From a virus (lineage: Duplodnaviria; Heunggongvirae; Uroviricota; Caudoviricetes): DNA of 7,352 nt. Below, piece after piece: positions 3,649 through 6,628 of this stretch. Below the pieces are notes generated by a model. That model was not told the DNA's origin. It ran no database searches and was given only the letters and a program-made list of their open reading frames with translations. The translations under genes and the position numbers were made by a program. The stretch lies in the IMG/VR virus record IMGVR_UViG_2563366829_000008; one strand, given 5' to 3'. Positions within the stretch are counted from its first letter, which is position 1. The number at the start of each line of letters is the position of its first letter.

Positions 3649-4335
3649 ATGACCCCAATAAAAATATTTATGACTATTGCTGATTTCAAACGGCCTAAAT
3701 TGGAGCTCCCAAACGGGGCAAACAAACTACTACTGCACTCTTGCTGTGCTCCATGTTCCGGTGAAGTGATGGAGGCGCTTCAGGCCTCGGGAATCGACTA
3801 CACCATCTTTTTCTACAACCCGAACATTCATCCTCAGAAAGAGTATTTAATTCGTAAGGATGAAAATATTCGCTTTGCTGAACAACACGGCGTGCCGTTT
3901 ATCGATGCTGATTACGACACCGACAACTGGTTTGAACGTGCCAAAGGAATGGAATGGGAGCCTGAGAGGGGGATCCGTTGTACCATGTGTTTTGACATGC
4001 GTTTTGAGCGGACAGCGTTGTACGCTGCTGAAAATGGTTTCAGTGTGATCAGCAGTTCACTGGGCATTTCACGCTGGAAAAATATGCAGCAGGTTAACGA
4101 GTGTGGGCGGCGAGCTGTTGCGCATTATCCGGGTATGGTGTACTGGGATTATAACTGGCGCAAGCAGGGCGGCTCGTCCCGTATGATTGAAATCAGCAAG
4201 CGCGAAAAATTCTATCAGCAGGAATATTGTGGCTGTGTGTATTCTCTGCGCGATACCAATCTACACCGCAAATCTCAGGGACGCCCTCTTATCAAAATTG
4301 GCCAACTCCACTACGGAAAAGAAGAGAAGGAGTGA
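3649..4335 (+). CDS. queH: Epoxyqueuosine reductase QueH (DUF208 family)
   Basis: Contains the motifs I recall as QueH/DUF208 hallmarks: [37 protein letters not shown] and YCGCVYS (conserved Cys cluster). Start uncertain: ATG 3649 or ATG 3670, neither with a strong SD. Confidence 0.85.
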
Positions 4336-4367
4336 TTTTATGGATCACCTTTCTGATTGATTTCATA

Positions 4368-4396
4368 TTGGCGAGGTGACGTGAGTTAAGTAGAAT
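4368..4396 (+). promoter_or_regulatory. Candidate sigma70 promoter of the hok/mok mRNA (TTGGCG-N17-TAGAAT)
   Basis: -35 TTGGCG at 4368..4373, 17-nt spacer, -10 TAGAAT at 4391..4396. The predicted start near 4403 coincides with the 5' element (4401..4414) that is complementary to the mRNA 3' end (4778..4792), as expected for hok-family transcripts. Confidence 0.45.
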
Positions 4397-4449
4397 GGCT
4401 GCGGGTGCTTGAGGCTATCTGTCTCAGGCATGAACACTGAAAGGCAGAT

Positions 4450-4524
4450 AGAGAAAAGCCCCAGTTAACATTTCGCGTCCTGCAAGACGCTTAACATTAA
4501 TCTGAGGCCCAATCTATGTCTCAC
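4450..4524 (-). ncRNA. sok: Candidate Sok-like antisense RNA covering the mok SD and start codon (inferred)
   Basis: Inferred from hok/sok architecture. Minus-strand promoter-like TTGCCT-N17-TAACCT (plus coordinates 4559..4531) would start transcription near 4524. The antisense transcript spans the mok RBS (GAGG 4504..4507) and ATG 4516, contains the hairpin GCGTCTTGCAGGACGC, and ends in CTGGGGCTTTTCTCT. The -10 is weak; boundaries approximate. Confidence 0.3.
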
Positions 4525-4728
4525 AAATGTAGGTTAGCCTCTTACGTGCCGAAAGGCAAGGGGAAGCAGGCTATGAAGCAGCAAAAGGCGATGTTAATCG
4601 CCCTGATCGTCATCTGTTTAACCGTCATTGTGACGGCACTGGTAACGAGGAAAGACCTCTGCGAGGTACGAATCCGAACCGGCCAGACGGAGGTCGCTGT
4701 CTTCACAGCTTACGAACCTGAGGAGTAA
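4516..4728 (+). CDS. mok: Mok-like reading frame (N-terminally extended, in frame with hok; translational coupling element)
   Basis: 70-aa ORF; ATG 4516 with GAGG 8 nt upstream. It is in frame with hok and has a 19-aa basic extension (MSHKCRLASYVPKGKGKQA), the same layout as E. coli MokC (69 aa with HokC at its C-terminus, recalled). Confidence 0.55.
   Translation: MSHKCRLASYVPKGKGKQAMKQQKAMLIALIVICLTVIVTALVTRKDLCEVRIRTGQTEVAVFTAYEPEE
4573..4728 (+). CDS. hok: Hok/Gef-family type I toxin (HokD/RelF-like small membrane peptide)
   Basis: 51-aa product MKQQKAMLIALIVICLTVIVTALVTRKDLCEVRIRTGQTEVAVFTAYEPEE: a single TM helix plus the conserved CE.R..G..EVA.F.AYE motif of Hok family toxins. As far as I recall it is essentially identical to E. 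coli HokD (RelF). Confidence 0.85.
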   Translation: MKQQKAMLIALIVICLTVIVTALVTRKDLCEVRIRTGQTEVAVFTAYEPEE

Positions 4729-4797
4729 GAGACCCGGCGGGGGAGTAATCTCCCGCCACCTCTGATGTGCCAGGCATCCTCAACGCACCCGCACTTA

Positions 4798-4817
4798 ACC
4801 CGCTTCGGCGGGTTTTT
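4798..4817 (+). terminator. Rho-independent terminator after hok (ACCCGC-TTCG-GCGGGT followed by TTTTT)
   Basis: 6-bp GC-rich stem 4798..4803 / 4808..4813 with a TTCG tetraloop and a 5-T run; sits downstream of the hok stop after the fbi-like element. Confidence 0.75.
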
Positions 4818-4829
4818 GCATTAGTCTGG

Positions 4830-4858
4830 TTGACAAAAATAGAAAAATGCGAAAATAT
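4830..4858 (+). promoter_or_regulatory. Candidate promoter for the two-gene cassette (perfect -35 TTGACA; -10 ambiguous in an A-rich stretch)
   Basis: TTGACA at 4830..4835. Downstream, tgcGAAAATATG (4848..4859) offers a TG-extended GAAAAT or AAATAT -10 at 15-17 nt spacing. Lies between the hok terminator and the ATG at 4894. Confidence 0.35.
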
Positions 4859-4893
4859 GTGGTTTACGAATTCTAAAAAAAGCGAAACTTGAA

Positions 4894-5544
4894 ATGAATG
4901 AAAATCAGTTAGCTCCTTGTTGGGAATTTCAACCTTATCTTGCTGAAAACTATGTTCGCCACTTGTTGGCGGAGATCGCTAACGTACTTGAGCAGCTGTA
5001 CTATCATAAGCACGCATTAGACAGCAACTGGTCTGAAGGTGTAAGGGCTTATGATTGGGTCAGAAATCATCTTATTCAAAATGAAGATGCAATTCCTGGC
5101 CTTGAGATGATTTCCAAGGGGTTGGACTATGTAGTTGCTTTAAATAAAGTTCCGCTACAATTTACCAAAGATTGCATTAATAACCCCAAAAAGAAACATC
5201 GTCTGCGTCGAAATAAAGTAGAGTATGAGCAGCTCTCATTGTTTGGTGATGTTGAGGCTGAGCAAGATATTACATGGCGAGTCATAGCTGAGCCTTTTTT
5301 ATCCGAAGAGGGCGATGGTGAATTAGAGTCCACACTGCCTCGTTGGGAGGTAGCTCTTGTTGGATTTAATACTTATGGTGCTCAGATTAGTATAGTTTCT
5401 CATCAATCTACAGCATCGATGCCGCTTATGCCTCTTGATTATAACACACTCCCTGACGAAGCGGAGATTAATAAGGTGCCTCTTCGTCGGCGTACGAAGG
5501 ATAAAGATTTGGATGTGAGCAGTGATGGAACATCAGGTGAATAA
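4894..5544 (+). CDS. Hypothetical protein, 216 aa, no recognisable domain; first gene of AT-rich cassette (candidate toxin/effector partner)
   Basis: Long ORF in visibly AT-richer DNA than the flanking phage genes. Its stop (5542..5544) lies 20 nt inside the next gene, indicating translational coupling. Acidic C-terminal third; no catalytic motif recognised by eye. Confidence 0.75.
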   Translation: MNENQLAPCWEFQPYLAENYVRHLLAEIANVLEQLYYHKHALDSNWSEGVRAYDWVRNHLIQNEDAIPGLEMISKGLDYVVALNKVPLQFTKDCINNPKKKHRLRRNKVEYEQLSLFGDVEAEQDITWRVIAEPFLSEEGDGELESTLPRWEVALVGFNTYGAQISIVSHQSTASMPLMPLDYNTLPDEAEINKVPLRRRTKDKDLDVSSDGTSGE

Positions 5545-6628
5545 CTTCACTGAGTATCGGGGTGATAAGCTCAAACTAGCGAGAATGGCTGTTGGGCTTT
5601 CTTGTGAAGAGTTAGCCGAAAAAATTGGCAAGACAAAGCAATTCGTTAGCAAACTGGAGAAGGGGTGCAGGCCATCGGAGCAATGTCTTGAGTTAATATC
5701 TTCAGCGCTTATGATTAAGTCCAGTTTTCTTTTTACTGAACGAAAATACGCTCTGGAAAGTGATGTCTGCCATTTTCGGAGTAAGAAGTCCAGGACTCAA
5801 ACGCTGACTAATAGTGTATTGGCCAGGGCTGAGATTCTTAATATTATAATTTCTGCTGTTGAAGGTGAAATCGAATTTCCTGACGTTAACATACCGGAGC
5901 ACCCAGGGGCTGAATTACTTACTCCGAATGATATTGAGCGAGTGGCAGAAGATTGTCGCCGTGCCTGGAATTTAGGTCTTGGCCCTATATCATCAATGGT
6001 TAAATTGGCGGAGAGTTTAGGGGTAATCGTTGCGCATGTTACGGGAGTCGATGATCGTGTTGATGCTTTTACTGTTCACAATAACAGGCCTGTTATCATC
6101 AGGAACAATGTTAAAAAAAGCATATGTAGATTTCGCTCTGATTTAGGTCATGAATTAGGGCATTTAGTAATGCATGAGGGCATAACGACAGGTGATAAAC
6201 TTACGGAATCACAAGCCGATCACTTTTCGAGCGCCTTATTAGTTCCCAGGTTATCTTTCATTAAAGAATTTCCACGAATACGAGGTAAGCAATTCGACTG
6301 GAATGCTCTGGTTGAATTTAAACTTAGATGGAAAATCAGCCTTAAAATGTGTATTTATCGAGCCAGCGCATTAGGCTTATTGACCCAGGAACAGGCAAGA
6401 ACTGGCTATATGCATCTTAATTCCAGAGGGTATACGAGAGTTGAACCTGGTGATGAACTTTTGCGCCCTGAAGAACCCGGCATGCTGGCCGAGGCGATTG
6501 AAATGCTGGATGATGCAACCTGGCTAAGAATTCTTATGAAAACTGGCTTGAGCCAAGATTTAATTCGTGAGTTGTTCTCCATCAACAGACCTATTACAAA
6601 TCCAAGAAATATTTTCCAGATTGTTTGA
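5525..6628 (+). CDS. XRE-family HTH domain fused to ImmA/IrrE-family (COG2856 / M78-like) zinc metallopeptidase domain
   Basis: N-terminus LKLARMAVGLSCEELAEKIGKTKQFVSKLEKG is a classic XRE HTH. HELGH (HExxH) at 6149..6163 followed by E...ADHFSSALLVP matches the ImmA/IrrE signature. ATG 5525 (the track's 5522 is GTG). Confidence 0.85.
   Translation: MEHQVNNFTEYRGDKLKLARMAVGLSCEELAEKIGKTKQFVSKLEKGCRPSEQCLELISSALMIKSSFLFTERKYALESDVCHFRSKKSRTQTLTNSVLARAEILNIIISAVEGEIEFPDVNIPEHPGAELLTPNDIERVAEDCRRAWNLGLGPISSMVKLAESLGVIVAHVTGVDDRVDAFTVHNNRPVIIRNNVKKSICRFRSDLGHELGHLVMHEGITTGDKLTESQADHFSSALLVPRLSFIKEFPRIRGKQFDWNALVEFKLRWKISLKMCIYRASALGLLTQEQARTGYMHLNSRGYTRVEPGDELLRPEEPGMLAEAIEMLDDATWLRILMKTGLSQDLIRELFSINRPITNPRNIFQIV

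What the first reader, a model, noticed from the sequence alone, without database searches (positions are those of the whole stretch)
4368..4817. Complete hok/mok/sok-type type I toxin-antitoxin locus with visible 5'-3' (tac/fbi-like) complementarity, and not next to relBE
The toxin is HokD/RelF-like, but the locus has the full regulatory architecture: an in-frame Mok-like extension with its own SD, a promoter whose predicted start (about 4403) is at a 5' element GCGGGTGCTTGAGG (4401..4414) that is complementary, with one bulged G, to CCTCAACGCACCCGC near the mRNA 3' end (4778..4792), then a terminator. That long-range pairing is the hallmark fold-back inhibition of hok mRNAs. It sits after queH rather than after relBE as in the E. 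coli K-12 Qin arrangement I recall, so it may be an active post-segregational or abortive-infection module rather than a remnant.
Basis: partly seen in the sequence, partly recalled or inferred. Interest (0 to 1): 0.6.

Follow-up and report, generated by a model that had tools for sequence, protein, structure and literature searches.

The report
Intact prophage hok/mok/sok toxin-antitoxin locus
This is a structurally complete copy of the well-known hok/sok RNA-controlled toxin-antitoxin module, carried on a lambda-like prophage of E. coli; it is found in most E. coli genomes and a 93% identical copy has already been characterised, so it is ordinary.

Summary
Window 4368-4817 holds a complete hok/mok/sok type I toxin-antitoxin locus. 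It has a promoter, a 5' tac element (4403-4414) that pairs with a 3' fbi element (4778-4790, bulged C4784), a mok leader ORF, and hok (51 aa, identical to K-12 HokD). It also has a predicted 71-nt antisense Sok (4524-4454, minus strand) and a terminator. Rfam's sok/hok-leader model scores 120.5 bits against a threshold of 59. The tac/fbi, ucb/SD-mok and metastable-hairpin pairings all show compensatory changes across 37 homologues from several genera. K-12 hokD shares only the part from about 4559 onwards, because relE replaces the 5' half, so K-12 is the derived remnant.

None of this is new. About 70% of complete E. coli genomes carry a near full-length copy, and 943 share the same queH-hok junction. 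The 93% identical hokW-sokW locus of prophage Sp5 is annotated and experimentally validated.

One caveat on activity: the hok Shine-Dalgarno reads GGGG instead of GGAG. This is the same change as R1 A163G, which was recovered as a loss-of-toxicity suppressor.

A Rosmer (RmrT/RmrA) defence pair lies directly downstream.

The parts
4368..4396 (+). hok/mok mRNA promoter: -35 TTGGCG (4368-4373), 17-nt spacer, -10 TAGAAT (4391-4396)
   Evidence: Only sigma-70-like site found in 4250-4950. The predicted start, about 4403-4404, coincides with position 1 of the Rfam RF01794 match.
4403..4817 (+). Full-length hok mRNA (about 415 nt, inferred ends)
   Evidence: Bounded by the promoter and the terminator. 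The fold has z = -7.7. Homology with other genomic contexts spans about 4338/4384 to about 4816-4818.
4403..4414 (+). tac (translational activator element) at the mRNA 5' end
   Evidence: Pairs with fbi in the MFE fold. Position 4 (U4406) covaries with its fbi partner: CG 17, UA 16, UG 3, other 1.
4421..4431 (+). Partner of tac in the 5' metastable hairpin (4405-4415 with 4421-4431)
   Evidence: The hairpin forms when fbi is absent. In 37 homologues 87% of cells are paired, against 28-50% when partners are slid, and 4 pairs have changes on both sides.
4415..4451 (+). Leader hairpin I
   Evidence: Present in all predicted folds. The column 15/65 pair switches between AU (18) and UA (17).
4456..4464 (+). 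ucb (upstream complementary box, the anti-SD of mok): AAGCCCCAG
   Evidence: Pairs with CUGAGGC (4502-4508) in the centroid and closed fold. The 4463/4503 pair covaries: AU 17, GC 17. The alternative pairing with tac (4403-4410) is 94% paired but invariant.
4454..4524 (-). Predicted Sok antisense RNA (71 nt): roughly 9-14-nt single-stranded 5' tail, long hairpin, U-rich 3' end
   Evidence: Maps base for base onto the sokW misc_RNA annotated in AP000422. The fold is -29.6 kcal/mol with z = -4.8. sokW was detected by Northern blot in PMC8621323 with a probe covering the equivalent of 4496-4525.
4531..4559 (-). Sok promoter: -35 TTGCCT (minus strand of 4554-4559), 17-nt spacer, -10 TAACCT (minus strand of 4531-4536)
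   Evidence: Read directly from the sequence. The -10 is the element mutated in the sokW 'pro-less' construct (primers YO-421/422). TA..CT and TTGC are conserved in the alignment. The consensus scan did not detect it because the -10 matches only 3 of 6 positions.
4504..4507 (+). Shine-Dalgarno of mok (GAGG), 8 nt before the mok ATG
   Evidence: Read from the sequence. It corresponds to the GAGG mok SD of R1 described in PMC9841398. It pairs with ucb or with dcb.
4516..4728 (+). mok leader ORF (70 aa), in frame with hok, 19 codons upstream of the hok ATG
   Evidence: ORF list. It has the same position and length as the annotated mokW.
4520..4526 (+). Loop of the Sok-target hairpin (CUCACAA), opening with the YUNR motif CUCA; complementary to the Sok 5' end
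   Evidence: Hairpin 4511-4519 with 4527-4535. The loop is CUGA.. in hokW and R1. The role of YUNR is taken from established knowledge of hok/sok.
4537..4541 (+). dcb (downstream complementary box, GCCUC), which pairs with the mok SD region 4504-4508
   Evidence: Folds. This helix is 93% paired in 37 homologues.
4558..4564 (+). Shine-Dalgarno of hok, AAGGGGA; G4562 replaces the family-consensus A
   Evidence: Alignments: 1 of 37 sequences has G here. The position is equivalent to R1 A163G.
4573..4728 (+). hok toxin gene (51 aa)
   Evidence: Pfam HOK_GEF 3e-23. It is 100% identical to K-12 HokD and 92% to HokW. RefSeq annotates it as hokD.
4736..4757 (+). 3'-UTR hairpin GGCGGGGGA-GUAA-UCUCCCGCC, the expected 3' end of the processed mRNA
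   Evidence: Present in all folds. It corresponds to the last stem-loop of truncated R1 hok mRNA, which protects against 3' exonucleases (PMC9841398).
4778..4790 (+). fbi (fold-back inhibition element), with bulged C4784
   Evidence: In 59 of 64 distinct homologous loci a strong tac partner lies 35-65 nt after the hok stop.
4797..4817 (+). Intrinsic terminator (7-bp stem, UUCG loop, U run)
   Evidence: Homology with most other E. coli copies ends at 4816-4818.

Best explanation
The region is a structurally complete hok/mok/sok type I toxin-antitoxin module. It sits as an accessory cassette in the early-right region of a lambdoid E. coli prophage, between the replication genes with queH and a Rosmer defence pair.

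The mechanism below is inferred from the R1 and hokW paradigms; only the sequence and structural features were shown here.

1. A constitutive promoter produces an mRNA of about 415 nt.
2. While the mRNA is being made, the 5' tac element is held in a metastable hairpin.
3. In the finished mRNA, tac pairs with fbi near the 3' end, and the ucb box covers the mok Shine-Dalgarno. The mRNA is then neither translated nor bound by Sok.
4. Slow 3' exonucleolytic trimming back to the 4736-4757 hairpin removes fbi. tac then takes ucb, and the mok SD moves into the dcb hairpin. mok can now be translated, and hok is translated by coupling.
5. The short-lived antisense Sok (4524-4454, minus strand) pairs with the mok start region of this processed form and triggers its decay.
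6. If Sok supply stops, through loss of the element, a transcription block or prophage induction, the stable mRNA pool yields Hok. Hok damages the inner membrane.
For: Toxin and leader:
- The Hok/Gef domain scores 3e-23, and the toxin is identical to K-12 HokD.
- Rfam RF01794 matches 4403-4578 at 120.5 bits, against a gathering threshold of 59.

Fold-back pairing:
- tac/fbi appears in the MFE fold, z = -7.7. The complementarity was reached by 1 of 300 shuffles.
- In 59 of 64 distinct homologous loci, tac has a strong partner 35-65 nt after the hok stop.

Covariation:
- Compensatory changes occur in tac/fbi (U-A 16, C-G 17), in ucb/SD-mok (A-U 17, G-C 17) and in the metastable hairpin (U-A 17, C-G 7).
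- 81-87% of cells are paired, against 28-51% when the 3' partners are slid.

Energy model:
- The closed full-length fold (-166.8 kcal/mol) is about equal to the MFE, and the open fold is 10 kcal/mol worse. Removing fbi shrinks that gap to 3.4 kcal/mol.

Sok:
- It folds as a 5' tail plus hairpin plus U tail, z = -4.8.
- It maps exactly onto the annotated sokW.

Experimental analogue:
- The 93% identical hokW-sokW locus was shown to be a toxin/RNA-antitoxin pair, with Northern-detected sokW (PMC8621323).
- The R1 mechanism is as summarised in PMC9841398.
Against: - Nothing was measured for this allele. Transcript ends, Sok expression, processing and toxicity are all inferred.
- The energy model does not by itself favour the open (tac/ucb) form after truncation (-139.2 against -142.6 kcal/mol).
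- The tac/ucb stem is conserved but invariant, so covariation cannot support it.
- The hok SD carries G4562 (GGGG instead of GGAG). This is equivalent to R1 A163G, recovered as a loss-of-toxicity suppressor.
- Intact chromosomal hokA, hokB and hokC loci were reported unable to mediate post-segregational killing (quoted in 10.1101/2025.08.07.668861).
Confidence: 0.9

Rival explanations
1. The locus is complete in architecture but functionally attenuated or silent. It is transcribed and regulated like hok/sok, yet produces too little Hok to kill. It would then be a tolerated passenger rather than an active addiction or defence module.
For: - G4562 turns the hok SD from GGAG into GGGG. The same change in R1 (A163G) was selected as a suppressor of Hok toxicity. 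Only 1 of 37 aligned homologues has it.
- At most 493 of 4566 matching E. coli records share the exact 60-mer around it.
- Tyr47 (TAC) needs TadA editing to become the conserved Cys, and hokD is edited at only 6% in K-12.
Against: - The allele is not a singleton. Records that match the whole 525-nt query exactly come from unrelated human, wastewater, marine-sediment and bird isolates. The E. albertii locus L006 encodes the same Mok/Hok and gives the same Rfam score.
- Every other regulatory element is intact and pairs correctly.
- GGGG still pairs with the anti-SD through a G-U wobble (inference).
- Overexpressed HokD/RelF is toxic according to the literature.
Confidence: 0.25
2. Its main role is in the phage life cycle rather than in addiction. 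As proposed for hokW-sokW, prophage induction removes Sok, and Hok then helps lysis and phage release.
For: - hokW-sokW, which is 93% identical, doubled the release of Sp5 progeny after mitomycin C, with RecA-dependent HokW production.
- Here the cassette lies co-directionally inside the early-right operon, between the replication genes and Q. Read-through transcription on induction would therefore run head-on into the Sok promoter (inference).
Against: - The context differs. hokW sits at the prophage end next to the attachment site, not in the early region.
- The effect reported for hokW was only two-fold.
- Nothing was tested for this prophage, and whether it is inducible is unknown.
Confidence: 0.2
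3. It acts as an abortive-infection or exclusion module against other phages, as part of a small prophage defence island together with the adjacent Rosmer pair.
For: - RmrT (4.6e-25) and RmrA (6.2e-105) lie directly downstream.
- The same order, hok followed by Rosmer, occurs in phage Tritos behind a different upstream gene.
- R1 hok/sok on a high-copy plasmid reduced T4 plating (quoted in PMC8621323).
Against: - A survey of thousands of hok loci found no enrichment near defence systems.
- The hok-Rosmer junction occurs in only 232 of 5426 genomes, so the two are not an obligate unit.
- Hok matches no PADLOC model.
Confidence: 0.1

Closest known systems
hokW-mokW-sokW of Stx2 prophage Sp5 / VT2-Sakai / 933W (AP000422; Takada et al. 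2021, PMC8621323)
   Same: - 388 of 417 aligned bases are identical (93%), and Hok is 92% identical.
- The two loci share identical tac and fbi, the same 70-aa in-frame mok, the same Sok coordinates and promoter, and the same 3' hairpin.
- Both sit on lambdoid prophages.
   Different: - hokW lies at the prophage end near the attachment site, not between the replication genes and Q.
- Five of the 29 differences fall within 4519-4526, which is the Sok 5' tail and target loop.
- The sequence after fbi, which forms the terminator here, is unrelated.
- The hok SD is GGAG in hokW and GGGG here.
- The Hok C-terminus is VDYESEK in HokW and TAYEPEE here.
hokD (relF) of the E. coli K-12 Qin prophage
   Same: The toxin is identical. 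The DNA is nearly identical from about 4559 through hok, the 3' hairpin, fbi and the terminator.
   Different: - In K-12 the 3' end of relE abuts at about 4559. The promoter, tac, ucb, the Sok RNA region with its -10 and the mok start are therefore all missing.
- No RF01794 match is found in K-12.
- The literature describes K-12 hokD as inactivated by rearrangement (PMC12214031).
hok/sok (parB) of plasmid R1, the paradigm of the family
   Same: The order and spacing of all elements are the same: tac, metastable hairpin, ucb, Sok, the GAGG mok SD, a 19-codon mok leader, dcb, hok, the 3' hairpin and fbi.
   Different: - Hok is only 43% identical.
- tac/fbi reads GGCGCUU/AAGCGCC without a bulge.
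- Judging from the published numbering (116 against 174), R1 mok is read in a different frame from hok, whereas here it is in frame.
- The hairpin on the Sok-terminator side carries a 16-nt insertion here.
- R1 hok/sok is plasmid-borne and mediates post-segregational killing.
hokC/mokC/sokC (gef) and other chromosomal hok loci of Escherichia
   Same: The tac sequence is the same (GGGUGCUUGAGGC). The fbi is bulged in the same way (CUUCAACGCACCC). mok is in frame.
   Different: - Hok is about 80% identical.
- These loci lack the leader-hairpin insertion.
- They occupy a fixed chromosomal position rather than a prophage.

Membership tests
hok/mok/sok type I toxin-antitoxin family | Small Hok/Gef-family membrane toxin ORF (about 50 aa) | tested here: met
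   PF01848 HOK_GEF scores 3e-23, 81.6 bits against a cut-off of 22. The toxin is 100% identical to K-12 HokD.
hok/mok/sok type I toxin-antitoxin family | Conserved structured mRNA leader (Rfam RF01794, the model of the hok 5' region and Sok) | tested here: met
   120.5 bits against a gathering score of 59, E = 7.5e-28, full model 1-157, at 4403-4578 on the + strand.
hok/mok/sok type I toxin-antitoxin family | Long-range 5'-3' tac/fbi pairing that closes the full-length mRNA, supported by covariation | tested here: met
   - The pairing is in the MFE fold.
- 1 of 300 shuffles gave an equally good partner.
- 59 of 64 distinct homologous loci have a tac partner 35-65 nt after the stop.
- The position-4 pair counts are CG 17, UA 16, UG 3, other 1.
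hok/mok/sok type I toxin-antitoxin family | ucb box that sequesters the mok Shine-Dalgarno in the closed form | tested here: met
   GCCCCAG (4458-4464) pairs with CUGAGGC (4502-4508) at 6 of 7 positions. This pairing is in the centroid and in a fold within 0.2 kcal/mol of the MFE. One pair covaries AU 17 / GC 17.
hok/mok/sok type I toxin-antitoxin family | Switch to the open form after 3' trimming (tac/ucb stem plus mok SD/dcb hairpin) | tested here: inconclusive
   - The complementary sequences exist and are 93-94% paired in homologues, but tac/ucb never varies.
- The energy model narrows the gap from 10 to 3.4 kcal/mol on truncation, but still prefers a closed-like fold.
hok/mok/sok type I toxin-antitoxin family | Metastable 5' hairpin that sequesters tac in the nascent transcript | tested here: met
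   4405-4415 pairs with 4421-4431 when fbi is absent. In homologues 87% of cells are paired, against 28-50% when slid, and 4 pairs have changes on both sides.
hok/mok/sok type I toxin-antitoxin family | mok leader ORF with its own SD that starts upstream of hok and overlaps it | tested here: met
   GAGG at 4504-4507, ATG at 4516, 19 codons before the hok ATG, 70 aa in total. It is co-linear with the annotated mokW. Translation itself was not testable.
hok/mok/sok type I toxin-antitoxin family | cis-encoded antisense Sok RNA with its own promoter, overlapping the mok start region | tested here: met
   - Sequence features are present: -35 TTGCCT, a 17-nt spacer and -10 TAACCT on the minus strand.
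- The 71-nt RNA folds as a tail plus hairpin plus U run, z = -4.8.
- It maps exactly onto the annotated, Northern-verified sokW.
- Expression from this allele cannot be tested with these tools.
hok/mok/sok type I toxin-antitoxin family | Toxicity of Hok, neutralisation by Sok, and killing on loss of Sok | not testable with these tools
   Supported only by analogy with hokW-sokW (PMC8621323) and R1. G4562 in the hok SD is a caution.
K-12-type hokD/relF remnant (relBE-hokD operon) | hok ORF fused behind relE, with no leader, mok or Sok | tested here: not met
   The window carries the full leader, and queH lies upstream. Homology with K-12 starts only at about 4559.

The most novel reading that the evidence does not exclude
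The G4562 allele (hok SD GGAG changed to GGGG, the natural counterpart of the R1 suppressor A163G) could be a selected, down-tuned version of hok/sok. Its Hok output would be set for a prophage-specific job: lysis timing on induction, or abortive infection alongside the adjacent Rosmer pair. Head-on read-through from the phage early-right promoter would then act as the trigger that silences Sok.
Probability: 0.1. Interest if true: 0.35.

Novelty: already known. Interest (0 to 1): 0.1.

Why it matters
It matters little for discovery. The family, its fold-back mechanism and a 93% identical prophage copy have all been described, and RefSeq already labels this gene hokD.

It is useful mainly as annotation. 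RefSeq marks only the 51-aa ORF, whereas the functional unit is about 450 bp and includes mok, Sok and the RNA switches. It also gives a clean illustration that K-12 hokD/relF is the truncated derivative of a common intact prophage cassette.

The SD polymorphism gives a cheap, testable handle on whether prophage hok copies are naturally attenuated.

Tried and rejected
- The consensus promoter scan did not report the Sok promoter, because its -10 TAACCT matches only 3 of 6 positions. I located it by homology with the sokW 'pro-less' mutagenesis primers instead.
- Folding the 3'-truncated mRNA did not give the textbook open form. It gave the metastable-type 5' hairpin with ucb still on the mok SD. 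The switch step therefore remains an inference.
- Column-wise pair counts for the distal half of tac/fbi are depressed (about 80%). The bulged C shifts the MAFFT register between subfamilies. Per-locus duplex folding handles this better.
- The own-versus-foreign tac/3'UTR energy comparison gave only a modest difference (-20.6 against -17.7 kcal/mol), because tac is highly conserved.
- PADLOC has no model that matches Hok.
- I considered whether the in-frame mok is anomalous. It is not: mokW, mokC-type loci and an R1-type plasmid copy are also in frame. R1 itself appears to be out of frame by the published numbering.
- I considered whether the locus was a K-12-like remnant, and rejected this.
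- The count of the G4562 allele (at most 493 records) is only an upper bound, because short exact partial matches fall into the same identity band.

Full report
**Where the window comes from.** The 525 bases around the finding are 100% identical to many complete E. coli chromosomes, where the ORF is annotated as hokD. In strain 118UI the window lies in a lambdoid prophage. The gene order is: exonuclease, dicB, ydfC, repressor-like genes, DnaT-like/P replication genes, DUF1627, DUF977, QueH, hokD, a hypothetical gene, an HTH/peptidase gene, DUF968, RusA and Q. Related phage genomes share parts of the window at 88-91% identity.

**Check of the observation.**
- The only sigma-70-like site in 4250-4950 is TTGGCG-17-TAGAAT at 4368-4396. 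The only terminator-like site is 4797-4814.
- The ORF list gives a 70-aa ORF at 4516-4728. Its last 51 codons (4573-4728) are hok.
- GCGGGTGCTTGAGG (4401-4414) and CCTCAACGCACCCGC (4778-4792) form 14 pairs at -25.1 kcal/mol with one bulge. Only 1 of 300 dinucleotide shuffles of the remaining transcript offered the 5' 14-mer an equally good partner.
- The minimum-free-energy fold of 4401-4817 (-172.8 kcal/mol, z = -7.7) contains exactly this pairing.

Two corrections are needed. The bulged base is C4784 of the 3' element. With a start at 4403/4404, the first two pairs are not part of the RNA.

**What it is.** Rfam's RF01794 model describes the structured hok leader that contains the Sok region. 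It matches 4403-4578 on the plus strand at 120.5 bits (gathering score 59), covering the full length of the model. The ORF carries the Hok/Gef domain (3e-23) and is identical to K-12 HokD.

VT2-Sakai (AP000422) annotates mokW, hokW and a 71-nt sokW antisense RNA. A base-by-base alignment (388/417 identical) maps these features as follows:
- sokW maps to window 4454-4524 on the minus strand.
- The mokW start maps to 4516.
- hokW maps to 4573-4728.

That minus-strand RNA folds into a free 5' tail of roughly 9-14 nt, a long hairpin and a U-rich end (-29.6 kcal/mol, z = -4.8). Its promoter, read on the minus strand, is TTGCCT (4559-4554), a 17-nt spacer and TAACCT (4536-4531). The -10 is the element that Takada et al. 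mutated to silence sokW, as their primers show.

**Test of the RNA switches against relatives.** I fetched 80 hok loci from one-genome-per-species contigs (Escherichia, Shigella, Kluyvera, Photorhabdus, Pantoea, Erwinia, Enterobacter, Buttiauxella and others). I located their leaders with Rfam.

In 59 of 64 distinct loci, the first 13 nt of the leader find a strong partner 35-65 nt after the hok stop. On a 37-sequence alignment, the pair counts were:
- **Closed form** (tac/fbi, hairpin I and ucb/SD-mok): 85% of cells paired, against 37-49% when partners are slid, with 14 pairs changed on both sides. The tac position-4 pair reads CG 17 / UA 16. The ucb/SD pair reads AU 17 / GC 17.
- **Metastable 5' hairpin**: 87% paired, against 28-50% when slid. 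The same tac position 4 switches between UA (17) and CG (7). This is the 'coupled covariation' known for hok mRNAs.
- **Open form**: 81% paired, but the tac/ucb stem is invariant, so covariation is silent on it.

The window's own bases form standard pairs in all of these helices.

**Energetics.** For the full-length RNA, the closed fold with tac/fbi and ucb/SD-mok enforced is -166.8 kcal/mol, against an MFE of -167.0. The open fold is -156.6. After removal of fbi (RNA ending at 4776), the open fold is -139.2 against an MFE of -142.6. Loss of fbi therefore removes most of the penalty on the open form, but not all of it. The switch is consistent with the R1 model (summarised in PMC9841398), but the energy model does not prove it.

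**Relation to K-12.** The K-12 relE-hokD-rem region aligns with the window only from about 4559 onward: the hok SD, hok, the 3' hairpin, fbi and the terminator, all nearly identical. Upstream of that point lies the unrelated 3' end of relE. No RF01794 match exists in that K-12 stretch. K-12 hokD therefore lacks the promoter, tac, ucb, the Sok RNA region with its -10, and the mok start. This agrees with published statements that it was inactivated by rearrangement (PMC12214031).

**How common it is.**
- 3802 of 5426 complete E. coli genomes hold a place covering at least 80% of 4336-4860, with a median of 2 and up to 9 matching places (full or partial) per genome.
- The queH-hok junction occurs in 943 genomes and the K-12 relE-hokD junction in 1165.
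- Across contexts, homology runs from about 4338-4384 to about 4816-4818. The mobile unit is therefore essentially the transcription unit.
- Seventy-nine phage records and 620 plasmid records also match.
- A recent survey reports Hok in almost 80% of Enterobacteriaceae genomes, with enrichment in prophages (10.1101/2025.08.07.668861).

**Function.** hokW-sokW was shown to be a toxin/RNA-antitoxin pair. Mitomycin C removes sokW, HokW appears in a RecA-dependent way, and phage release doubles (PMC8621323). By homology, the window's cassette most likely works through the canonical hok/sok mechanism. Whether it serves prophage retention, lysis timing or phage exclusion is open.

One caution emerged. 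The hok SD reads AAGGGGAAG, where hokW, K-12 hokD, R1 and 36 of 37 aligned homologues have an A at the position of G4562; most read GGAG. G4562 lies 11 nt before the hok ATG. This is the position of R1 A163, and A163G was recovered as a loss-of-toxicity substitution in a Sok-less selection (PMC9841398). At most 493 of 4566 matching records share the exact 60-mer. This allele may therefore be attenuated.

**Verdict.** Novelty: already known. Interest: low.

Noticed in passing
window 4894-5544 and 5522-6628 (+): The two overlapping ORFs directly after the hok terminator match PADLOC RmrT (4.6e-25) and RmrA (6.2e-105). RmrA also carries HTH_3 and Peptidase_M78/ImmA-IrrE domains. Together they form a Rosmer toxin-antitoxin-type anti-phage defence pair. 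The same order, hok followed by the pair, occurs in phage Tritos behind a different upstream gene. The junction is present in 232 of 5426 E. coli genomes.
   Followed up: partly
window 4562: G replaces the family-consensus A in the hok Shine-Dalgarno (GGGG instead of GGAG). The position is homologous to R1 A163G, a loss-of-toxicity suppressor. It is a minority allele in E. coli, with at most 493 of 4566 matching records.
   Followed up: partly
window 3649-4335 (+): A prophage-borne epoxyqueuosine reductase QueH (PF02677, 1.1e-65) lies immediately upstream of hok. This is a tRNA-modification gene carried in the phage early region.
   Followed up: no
window 4711-4714: The Tyr47 codon TAC is followed by G, giving the TadA editing motif UACG. 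A-to-I editing of A4712 would recode Tyr47 to the Cys that is conserved or editing-encoded in Hok proteins. K-12 hokD is reported as 6% edited (PMC12214031).
   Followed up: partly
window 4519-4526, compared with L004 4136-4143: Differences between this locus and hokW cluster in the Sok 5' tail and target loop (5 of 8 positions there), while the YUNR start of the loop is kept (CUCA against CUGA). This may insulate paralogous hok/sok pairs that coexist in one genome.
   Followed up: no
L003 344-403, compared with the R1 numbering in PMC9841398: mok is in frame with hok in the window, in mokW, in mokC-type loci and in an R1-type IncFII plasmid copy (57 nt between the two ATGs). The published R1 numbering (mok ATG at 116, hok ATG at 174) implies a different frame. 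In several other loci the in-frame extension is closed by a stop.
   Followed up: partly
L058 250-397 and L074 362-389: In Erwinia sp. CGal63 and Kalamiella sp., CRISPR-DR4 repeats lie roughly 100 nt upstream of the hok leader.
   Followed up: no
L015, L025, L031, L063-L065: hok loci identical or nearly identical to the E. coli or plasmid type appear on short contigs labelled Veillonella, Acinetobacter, Xanthomonas, Streptomyces, Ferruginibacter and Oscillibacter. These are most likely assembly contamination or plasmid carry-over.
   Followed up: no
L004 1311-1399 and L085 976-1065: Rfam sRNA-Xcc1 matches (69 and 61 bits) lie near hok loci in VT2-Sakai and in Erwinia tracheiphila.
   Followed up: no
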